Shown here: positions 23,337 through 24,110 of the stretch, piece after piece | Position numbering within the stretch: position 1 is the first letter of the stretch | How the letters are laid out: every line of letters starts with the position of its first letter | Source: the human T2T-CHM13v2.0 reference genome, Homo sapiens | Strand: one strand, 5' to 3' | NCBI RefSeq assembly: GCF_009914755.1 | Contig: NC_060927.1 | DNA length: 64,000 nucleotides | Notes under the pieces: generated by a model | What the model was told of the DNA's origin: nothing | Database searches by the model: none | The model's input: only the letters and a program-made list of their open reading frames with translations | Made by a program: the position numbers and the translations under genes

Positions 23337-24110
23337 ACTTGCTTAAAGGAACGGGTGGTTGGACCCTGTGGTCTACCTGGGGTCCCCACCCAGCCACTCA
23401 CCCACTCCTCCCCTTGGTGGGGAAGGGAGGGAGGTGAAACAGAGCTGTCTGCCCACCCCAATCCCACCTCCTTTACCAGTGACCCAGTCACGGATTTCAA
23501 GTTTAATGCACCCGGAATCCTGCAATTTAGTTCTTTTGGCATAAGTCACCTTCCCACTGCTCCCCAACGCATGCTCGCAATTATGCTGTACTGCCACTCT
23601 TGGCAAAGTTTTCAGAGAGTAGCCTCCGCCCCATACCCCCTACCCAGAATCTGCAGTGGGCAGGACTCACCGTTGCTAGGAAACACCCGCTGTAATCCCT
23701 TTGACCCTGTCCTGTGCTGATCTTTGGGGGAAAAGCCCCCTGCCCAACTATTGAGCATGCACAGACTATTCCAGGTGCAGCTGCTGCCAAATTGCTGTTC
23801 TCCAGGAACCCGCGGTAGGGAGCCATCGGCAGCCCCGGGAGTGCCTGCTGCAACGGCCTGACAAGGATTAGGGATTAACGGGGAGATCTGCTGCATCCTC
23901 TTCTTTCCTCAGTAGGAAGAACGACACAGGAGGCAGGGTTGGAGGCTCAGCTAAAAACCAGATTCCCACCACCTGTTCCTTCAAGCAAGTGCGCTTGCGC
24001 CGGGCAGGCCCTCGGGCTAGCGTCTGGCTGATGGGTGGTGCTGCCGAGCGAGGAGCGCACGCGCTCGGCGTCTCCATCTTCTGGTTGTGTGGTCCGTATT
24101 TTAGGGGTGT
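23337..24110. promoter_or_regulatory. Small CpG-rich, promoter-like element with internal inverted symmetry
   Basis: CpG-rich in an AT-rich context; X-box GTTGCTAGGAAAC 23672-23684; GCGCTTGCGC 23991-24000; GCGCACGCGC 24055-24064; YAACGG at 23851, 23876 and (-) 23670-23675; minus-strand donor ACG|GTGAGT at 23671/23670. Confidence 0.6.

What the first reader, a model, noticed from the sequence alone, without database searches (positions are those of the whole stretch)
23337..24110. CpG-rich, self-symmetric, germline-type promoter candidate at the axis of the inverted duplication
Seen: ACTTGCTTAAAGGAACGGGTGGTTGGA (23337-23363, +) matches ACTTGCTTGAAGGAACAGGTGGTGGGA (23990-23964, -) at 24/27. Weaker mirror similarity continues inward (TGCACCCGGAAT about 23507 vs TGCACCTGGAAT about 23779 on -; GCATGCTC on both arms). 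Near the axis are an RFX X-box GTTGCTAGGAAAC (23672-23684), three MYB-type YAACGG cores, two NRF1-like GCGCNNGCGC sites and a consensus donor ACG|GTGAGT on -. Established: A-MYB (MYBL1), RFX2 and NRF1 act at spermatocyte promoters, and pachytene piRNA loci are often A-MYB-driven and bidirectional. Inference: a head-to-head duplicated promoter driving divergent non-coding transcription.
Basis: partly seen in the sequence, partly recalled or inferred. Interest (0 to 1): 0.75.

Follow-up and report, generated by a model that had tools for sequence, protein, structure and literature searches.

The report
Old rearranged copy of FOXN4 promoter island
This GC-rich block is an ancient, partly inverted and mostly decayed copy of part of the CpG island at the start of the FOXN4 gene on chromosome 12, and its one still CpG-rich end is annotated as the start of an unstudied non-coding RNA; nothing found supports a germline piRNA promoter.

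Summary
The 24/27 inverted repeat is real and beyond chance. The symmetry is limited to two outer arms of about 115 nt. The interior shows no mirror similarity (z=1.7).

The block is not CpG-rich overall: CpG o/e is 0.45. Only 23964-24110 (o/e 0.87) and 23790-24110 (o/e 0.70) qualify.

The block is not a multi-copy repeat. Three whole-genome searches found one paralog, C12:109284041-109284753, at about 69% identity. That paralog lies in a 2-kb CpG island about 23 kb upstream of split forkhead exons. Published bisulfite primers for the "promoter-associated" FOXN4 CpG island map onto it.

Chr12 reads U-A-M. The window reads A-M, then inverted A'-U', set between inverted copies of an old dispersed repeat.

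Of 42 chr12 CpGs in A-M, 5 survive in the window. The CpG-rich right end carries two NRF1-like palindromes 28 and 92 nt upstream of the annotated TSS of lncRNA LOC107986095.

The locus is absent from a published annotation of human piRNA genes, and exon 1 is 293 nt. It is an ordinary small lncRNA promoter with an unusual origin.

The parts
23337..23452 (+). Left arm A. It includes the 27-nt core 23337-23363 and is homologous to the chr12 FOXN4-island segment L002(-) about 1942-1828.
   Evidence: It is 72.1% identical to chr12 and 66.4% to the right arm.
23453..23878 (+). Middle segment M. It is collinear with chr12 in direct orientation only. It is CpG-decayed and shows no mirror symmetry.
   Evidence: 327/475 over 23321-23760; extension to about 23900 scores 60 vs 28.3 +/- 3.9; 42 chr12 CpG, 5 kept; interior mirror z=1.7.
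23878..23990 (-). Right arm A', the inverted copy of A. It includes the 27-nt core 23964-23990, which lies immediately upstream of the annotated TSS.
   Evidence: HSP 2 (92/133).. It is 69.1% identical to chr12.
23991..24090 (-). U', the inverted copy of the chr12 sequence lying just upstream of A. It carries NRF1-like palindromes GCGCTTGCGC (23991-24000) and GCGCACGCGC (24055-24064), which are -28..-37 and -92..-101 from the TSS.
   Evidence: score 51 vs 23.8 +/- 4.3; 2 sites vs 0.01 expected. Both sites fall in alignment gaps against chr12.
23964..24110 (.). The only truly CpG-rich patch: 13 CpG, GC 0.64, o/e 0.87. It is the proposed core and proximal promoter.
23671..23963 (-). Exon 1 of the predicted lncRNA LOC107986095. 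The TSS is at 23963 and the donor is ACG|GTGAGT at 23671|23670.
   Evidence: Hub annotation (RefSeq XR_007073595.1, a predicted model). The donor motif was located.
23040..23336 (-). A later Alu insertion abutting the left arm. Its target-site duplication is AAAACT (23040-23045 and 23334-23339). It has 22 CpG, o/e 0.91.
   Evidence: sequence; SRP/Alu matches 23052-23331; many Alu matches.
21016..23016 (+). Left flank T, a copy of an old dispersed repeat. Family positions are about 17-2017 of the query used.
   Evidence: 29 matches at 66-77% identity, apart from the self-match and two short stretches at 92-97%, on C1, C2, C23 and others..
24099..25622 (-). Right flank T', the same repeat family inverted. 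It covers family positions of about 17-916 only. The pieces are 24099-24358, 24414-24464 and 25032-25622, interrupted by other inserted sequence.
   Evidence: quartets favour L+R as sisters, 9 vs 2 and 3, and 7 vs 0 and 2.

Best explanation
The block 23337-24090 is an old, DNA-level, rearranged copy of about 710 nt of the promoter-associated CpG island of FOXN4 (chr12).

Chr12 has the order U-A-M. The window has A-M in forward orientation, followed by A'-U' inverted.

The block sits between two inverted copies of an old dispersed repeat. I infer that one complex inverted-duplication or template-switch rearrangement, roughly 50-100 million years ago, created the whole arrangement.

Most of the copy then lost its CpGs, as methylated DNA does. 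The inverted U'-A' end stayed or became CpG-rich and acquired two NRF1-type palindromes. It now serves as a small, unidirectional, CpG-type promoter. Transcription starts at 23963 on the minus strand, right after the 27-nt core, runs through inverted M, and splices at the GTGAGT donor at 23671 into lncRNA LOC107986095.

Shown: the paralogy, the architecture, the CpG decay and the motif positions.
Inferred: the single-event origin, the date and NRF1 use.
Taken from annotation only: promoter activity.
For: Paralogy:
- One non-self match in the 3.1-Gb genome, reciprocal, with E 3.3e-36 and 1.1e-37.
- Alignments of 327/475 and 92/133.
- Extensions score 60 vs 28.3 +/- 3.9 and 51 vs 23.8 +/- 4.3.

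Identity of the chr12 site:
- A CpG island at C12:109283751-109285750.
- It is about 23 kb upstream, on the same strand, of split forkhead-domain exons (57.1 and 35.7 bits).
- Chung et al. 2008 (PMC2323612) list FOXN4, 12q24.11, among 'promoter-associated CpG island clones'.
- Their FOXN4 bisulfite primers map uniquely to L002 1264-1285 and 1534-1556, inside segment M.

Architecture:
- Both arms align to the same chr12 stretch.
- Only the right arm continues into chr12's upstream sequence.

Timing, from 112 three-way columns: 58 identical, 9 shared by the two arms, 22 and 17 arm-specific, 6 all different. The arms therefore split soon after, or at, the copy event.

Decay: 42 chr12 CpG; 5 kept, 14 now TG/CA.

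Promoter: the CpG-rich patch and NRF1-like sites lie directly upstream of the annotated TSS. The donor coincides with the annotated exon boundary.
Against: - Promoter activity rests solely on a predicted RefSeq model (XR_). No expression, CAGE, chromatin or methylation data could be consulted, and no paper mentions the lncRNA (0 papers).
- The base before the annotated TSS is A, not the pyrimidine usual at an initiator (read).
- The NRF1-like sites match only the loose GCGCNNGCGC. The strict YGCGCAYGCGCR pattern gives 0.
- The single-event origin is not proven. The flanking repeat arms are only modestly closer to each other (75.2% and 72.8%) than to copies elsewhere (64-75%). The quartet support (16 vs 7 sites in all) could reflect repeat-subfamily structure.
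- The genome search is word-seeded and says its counts are lower bounds, so more diverged copies may exist.
- Whether the chr12 segment is promoter, first exon or first intron of FOXN4 was not resolved.
Confidence: 0.65

Rival explanations
1. A germline-type, A-MYB/RFX/NRF1-driven, head-to-head duplicated promoter gives divergent non-coding transcription, possibly pachytene piRNA precursors.
For: - Inverted arms derived from promoter-island sequence.
- YAACGG 3 vs 0.47 expected, P 0.011.
- One loose X-box (P 0.005).
- Two NRF1-like sites.
- A minus-strand TSS is annotated.
Against: - No chr3 row at 65.9-66.59 Mb, and no pi-SLC25A26, in the human piRNA gene table of PMC7782496.
- The hallmark first exon of at least 10 kb (abstract) is not met: exon 1 is 293 nt.
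- No plus-strand TSS is annotated, and the left arm has CpG o/e 0.25.
- YAACNG is at chance and the strict X-box is absent.
- The MYB cores are not present at the aligned chr12 positions.
- The hg19 position of the window was estimated from recalled offsets, which is why a 0.7-Mb span was checked.
Confidence: 0.06
2. An inert relic. The block is a decayed duplicated fragment with no present function. The lncRNA model reflects low-level or spurious transcription, and the CpG-rich patch is residual.
For: - The lncRNA is a predicted model only, and no paper mentions it.
- 37 of 42 ancestral CpGs in A-M are lost.
- No RefSeq functional element is listed here (hub annotation).
- No Rfam family matches within the block.
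Against: - CpG o/e 0.87 persists over 147 nt exactly upstream of the modelled TSS, after divergence that erased CpGs in the rest of the copy.
- Two palindromic GCGCNNGCGC sites arose there.
- A consensus donor sits at the modelled exon end.
Confidence: 0.25
3. A non-autonomous DNA transposon bounded by 27-nt terminal inverted repeats (23337-23990), or an LTR or L1 5' UTR.
For: The 24/27 terminal inverted repeat with about 600 nt between the copies.
Against: - Only two places in the genome.
- Homology to chr12 runs about 100 nt beyond the right 'terminus'.
- Chr12 has a single arm with no inverted partner in the 3.4-kb locus, and no further non-Alu match near the block appeared in the 50-kb search at its E threshold.
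- No matching target-site duplication was seen by eye.
Confidence: 0.03

Closest known systems
FOXN4 promoter-associated CpG island (12q24.11; Chung et al. 2008, PMC2323612, Table 2 and primer table)
   Same: Homologous sequence over about 710 nt at about 69-75% identity. It includes long shared blocks and the published bisulfite primer sites.
   Different: - The window copy is rearranged: A-M followed by inverted A'-U'.
- It has lost 37 of 42 CpGs in A-M.
- It lies 25.6 kb upstream of the main SLC25A26 exon 1, with no forkhead gene nearby.
- It is annotated as a lncRNA start.
Small orphan CpG-island promoters of lncRNAs with NRF1-type sites (general knowledge, recalled)
   Same: A short CpG-rich patch with no TATA (0), GCGC palindromes within 100 nt of the TSS, and a short first exon with a consensus donor.
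   Different: It reaches island criteria over only about 150-320 nt. Activity and factor binding are untested.
Complex inverted duplications made by replication template switching (FoSTeS/MMBIR, DUP-INV structures; recalled from the literature, not read here)
   Same: Segments from a distant locus and from the local flank are joined in alternating orientation. Inverted arms are of the same age as the insertion.
   Different: The event is ancient and fixed. Junction microhomology can no longer be read at about 30% divergence. A two-step origin is not excluded.
Bidirectional A-MYB-bound pachytene piRNA cluster promoters (Yu et al. 2021, PMC7782496: abstract, section 31 and Supplementary Data 4 seen)
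   Same: MYB-core motifs and an inverted-repeat layout.
   Different: The locus is not in the annotated human piRNA genes. It has a short spliced first exon, and only one annotated direction.

Membership tests
CpG island (Gardiner-Garden and Frommer criteria, recalled: at least 200 bp, GC at least 0.5, o/e at least 0.6) | The criteria met over the claimed 774 nt | tested here: not met
   GC 0.57, o/e 0.45 for 23337-24110.
CpG island (Gardiner-Garden and Frommer criteria, recalled) | The criteria met over a sub-region | tested here: met
   23790-24110 is 321 nt, GC 0.60, o/e 0.70. 23964-24110 has o/e 0.87 but is only 147 nt.
Pachytene piRNA cluster promoter | The locus is listed among annotated human piRNA-producing genes | tested here: not met
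   The human hg19 sheet of PMC7782496 Supplementary Data 4 has no chr3 entry with a coordinate starting 659-665, and no pi-SLC25A26.
Pachytene piRNA cluster promoter | A long first exon (at least 10 kb) or a long unspliced transcript | tested here: not met
   Annotated exon 1 is 293 nt with a consensus donor. The criterion comes from the abstract seen.
Pachytene piRNA cluster promoter | A-MYB occupancy and testis-specific divergent TSSs | not testable with these tools
   Motif counts only. No ChIP, CAGE or small-RNA data are available.
DNA transposon with terminal inverted repeats | Multiple dispersed copies ending at the inverted repeats, with target-site duplications | tested here: not met
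   two places only; homology passes the right terminus. No target-site duplication was seen.
LTR or L1 5' UTR | A full-length match to a multi-copy family | tested here: not met
   Searches give one paralog, which is a unique-gene CpG island. No Dfam library was available, so this is an indirect test.
Paralog of the FOXN4 promoter-associated CpG island | Significant, reciprocal, collinear sequence homology to the island named in print | tested here: met
   for the homology. for the identity of the chr12 site.
NRF1-bound promoter | A GCGCATGCGC-type palindrome near the TSS, and NRF1 binding | tested here: inconclusive
   two GCGCNNGCGC sites, none matching strict YGCGCAYGCGCR. Binding is not testable.

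The most novel reading that the evidence does not exclude
A fragment of a developmental transcription-factor gene's promoter island was copied to another chromosome in an inverted-repeat configuration and gave birth to a new lncRNA promoter. That promoter may still respond to part of FOXN4's regulatory input. For example, LOC107986095 could be co-expressed with FOXN4 in retinal or spinal progenitors, or in cells forming multiple cilia, where MYB and RFX factors act (recalled). Alternatively, the two arms could fire divergently in the germline.
Probability: 0.1. Interest if true: 0.55.

Novelty: new member of a known kind. Interest (0 to 1): 0.3.

Why it matters
If the origin story holds, this is a clean, datable example of a lncRNA promoter made from a duplicated piece of another gene's CpG island. 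It also serves as a natural experiment. One copy stayed a dense island, most of the other decayed, and a 150-nt patch at a new TSS kept or regained CpGs.

There is a practical point too. Assays aimed at the FOXN4 island, which has been used as a cancer methylation marker, have a diverged look-alike on chr3.

It does not bear on piRNA biology as far as the evidence goes.

Tried and rejected
I dropped the attempt, so T has no family name.
- Rfam found no RNA family in the block or in the chr12 locus L002 (4 matches, all far below gathering scores).
- ORFs in the block are short, 69-123 aa, 4 of them. I did not pursue them.
- A retrocopy of FOXN4 mRNA is unlikely. No other non-Alu match between window 21000-27000 and 50 kb of the FOXN4 locus appeared. 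I inspected 33 of the 964 HSP rows, those with a query start in 21000-27000, and did not look at the rest. The homology also runs through a GT donor-like site on chr12.
- L1 twin priming is rejected, because the inverted piece lies on the wrong side of the sense piece (reasoned).
- A perfect-palindrome origin is less parsimonious. The left arm lacks U, and the right arm lacks repeat positions 917-2017.
- Literature searches: LOC107986095 gave 0 papers. SLC25A26 + piRNA gave 6 papers, none relevant by title or abstract start. FOXN4 + promoter + CpG island + duplicat gave 8 papers, 7 listed, none relevant by title or abstract start.

Full report
**Observation**

23337-23363 (+) and 23990-23964 (-) match at 24 of 27. 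The local alignment scores 39, against 18.3 +/- 2.3 (max 30) in 300 shuffles. The repeat finder extends the pair to 59 nt at 73% (I1).

The listed motifs are at the stated places. The minus-strand ACG|GTGAGT donor is exactly the end of annotated exon 1 (23671-23963) of lncRNA LOC107986095.

Two descriptors do not hold.
- The 774 nt are not CpG-rich as a whole: 28 CpG, o/e 0.45. Only 23964-24110 (o/e 0.87) and 23790-24110 (GC 0.60, o/e 0.70) are. The CpG-dense stretch to the left, 23040-23329, is an Alu.
- The symmetry is confined to the outer arms. 23337-23452 vs rc 23878-23990 gives z=13.8. Without the 27-nt core, z=2.9 (3 of 300 shuffles). The interior, 23453-23663 vs rc 23664-23877, gives z=1.7 (21 of 300). 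The flanks outside give none.

**What the block is**

A search of the window's own 3.1-Gb genome with 23337-24110 returned the block itself and one other place, C12:109284242-109284682 (-), at 69% identity, E 3.3e-36. The reverse search with the chr12 sequence returned only the window (E 1.1e-37). The right end alone (23800-24125) returned only itself. The tool states that its counts are lower bounds, so very diverged copies cannot be excluded. Even so, this is not an LTR, an L1 5' UTR or a transposon family.

BLAST of the two loci gave two alignments.
- 327/475 for window 23321-23760 against L002 1954-1501. The first 16 nt are a chance match to the Alu end.
- 92/133 for window 23879-24009 against the same chr12 stretch, L002 1830-1960, in the opposite orientation.

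More permissive alignments extend both.
- The direct homology reaches about 23900: score 60 vs 28.3 +/- 3.9.
- The inverted homology runs about 100 nt further into chr12's upstream sequence, to window position of about 24090: score 51 vs 23.8 +/- 4.3.

Chr12 therefore reads U-A-M as one contiguous piece (C12:109284041-109284753). The window reads A-M, then A'-U'.

**Identity of the chr12 site**

- It lies in the downstream half of a 2-kb CpG island, C12:109283751-109285750.
- Split forkhead-domain exons lie about 23 kb further along the same strand, at C12:109260356-109261739 (57.1 and 35.7 bits).
- The other forkhead matches on C12 are at 2.87 and 8.05 Mb. I recall that FOXN4 is the forkhead gene at 12q24.11.
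- This is supported in print. Chung et al. 2008 (PMC2323612; passages and Table 2 read) list FOXN4, 12q24.11, among 'promoter-associated CpG island clones'.
- Their two FOXN4 bisulfite primers, written with R/Y at converted positions, each match L002 once with no mismatch, at 1264-1285 (+) and 1534-1556 (-). That places the amplicon inside segment M.
- I could not resolve whether U-A-M is promoter, first exon or first intron of FOXN4.

**History**

In A-M, chr12 has 42 CpGs. The window keeps 5, shows TG or CA at 14, other changes at 21 and gaps at 2. Non-CpG divergence is 0.195.

The two arms are less alike (66.4%) than either is to chr12 (72.1% and 69.1%). Over 112 ungapped three-way columns, 58 are identical, 9 are shared by the arms only, 22 and 17 are arm-specific, and 6 all differ. 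The inverted duplication of A is therefore almost as old as the copy from chr12.

Using a recalled neutral rate of about 2.2e-9 per site per year, the distances suggest very roughly 50-100 million years. This is inference.

The Alu at 23040-23336, with its AAAACT target duplication, came later. It separates the left arm from its original neighbour.

**The wider inverted duplication**

Inverted blocks flank the element: 21016-21627 vs 25622-25032 (71%), and 21668-21915 vs 24358-24099 (73%). They belong to an old dispersed repeat, with 29 and 42 genomic matches to the two flanks at mostly 66-80% identity.

The left copy runs on to about 23016. The right copy stops at the equivalent of 21915, 8 nt from the end of U'.

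I ran quartet tests, each on four sequences. I used L011 and L012 for one segment and L012 and L015 for the other. L013, L014, L016, L017 and L018 were left out for little overlap. The tests group the two local arms together by 9 vs 2 and 3 sites, and by 7 vs 0 and 2. This is modest support for a local duplication, although repeat-subfamily structure could mimic it.

The simplest reading is one complex event that joined, in alternating orientation, chr12 A-M, chr12 A'-U' and the local repeat. This is a template-switch-like structure, and the mechanism is recalled, not tested. A two-step origin is not excluded.

**Present function**

The only CpG-rich patch lies directly upstream, on the minus strand, of the annotated TSS at 23963. 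That TSS follows the 27-nt core immediately.

Two GCGCNNGCGC palindromes lie at -28..-37 and -92..-101 (2 observed vs 0.01 expected). Both fall in gaps of the alignment to chr12, so they seem to be specific to this copy. There is no TATA.

The transcript would run antisense through M and splice at 23671. This fits an ordinary small CpG-type lncRNA promoter. However, activity rests on a predicted RefSeq model only, and no paper mentions the gene.

**The germline/piRNA reading**

- YAACGG is mildly enriched (3 vs 0.47, P 0.011), but YAACNG is at chance (3 vs 2.75).
- The strict X-box is absent. The loose one is 11/13 shared with chr12, counted by eye.
- None of the three MYB cores is present at the aligned chr12 positions.
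- In Yu et al. 2021 (PMC7782496; abstract, section 31 and Supplementary Data 4 seen), the human hg19 sheet has no chr3 row with a coordinate starting 659-665 and no pi-SLC25A26. Its only 3p intergenic locus is 3-p25-2999.
- The abstract names a first exon of at least 10 kb, or a long unspliced transcript, as the hallmark. Exon 1 here is 293 nt.
- The hg19 position of the window was estimated from recalled offsets, so I checked a 0.7-Mb span.
- No plus-strand TSS is annotated, and the left arm is CpG-poor.

**Verdict**

The repeat is real and the element is a plausible promoter. It is a one-directional lncRNA promoter sitting in a decayed, rearranged copy of part of the FOXN4 promoter island. 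It is not a self-symmetric CpG island and not a supported piRNA source.

Noticed in passing
window 24349-24410 (Rfam match 24362-24541, +): A U2 snRNA-like 5' fragment at about 24364-24395 is flanked by a 15-nt direct repeat, AGGAACTATTGATAT / AGGAGCTATTGATAT (24349-24363 and 24396-24410, D12). Rfam U2 scores 31.3 bits, E 0.0016, below the gathering score. The flanking repeat copy resumes at 24414-24464. It looks like a very short U2-derived insertion with a target-site duplication.
   Followed up: partly
window 24510-24697 and 25172-25359: A direct repeat of about 190 nt at 77% identity lies inside the right flank. It is also inverted relative to 21283-21476. This suggests a local tandem-like duplication within the right repeat arm.
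   Followed up: no
window 21337-21379: Annotated exon 3 of LOC107986095 lies inside the left copy of the old dispersed repeat. It is therefore an exonised repeat fragment.
   Followed up: no
window 20900-20995: The sequence just left of the repeat arm resembles, from memory, the 3' end of a MaLR-type LTR. This was not tested, because no repeat library was available.
   Followed up: no
window 25640-25655 and 25700-28200: A (TA)n run lies next to the outer end of the right arm. Beyond it is a G-rich region with strong GC skew and many internal direct and inverted repeats at 26000-28200. It may be a degenerate tandem array.
   Followed up: no
L002 2160-2235 (chr12, minus orientation): A (GCC/ACC)n-type triplet run lies in the densest part of the FOXN4 CpG island, upstream of the segment that was copied.
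   Followed up: no
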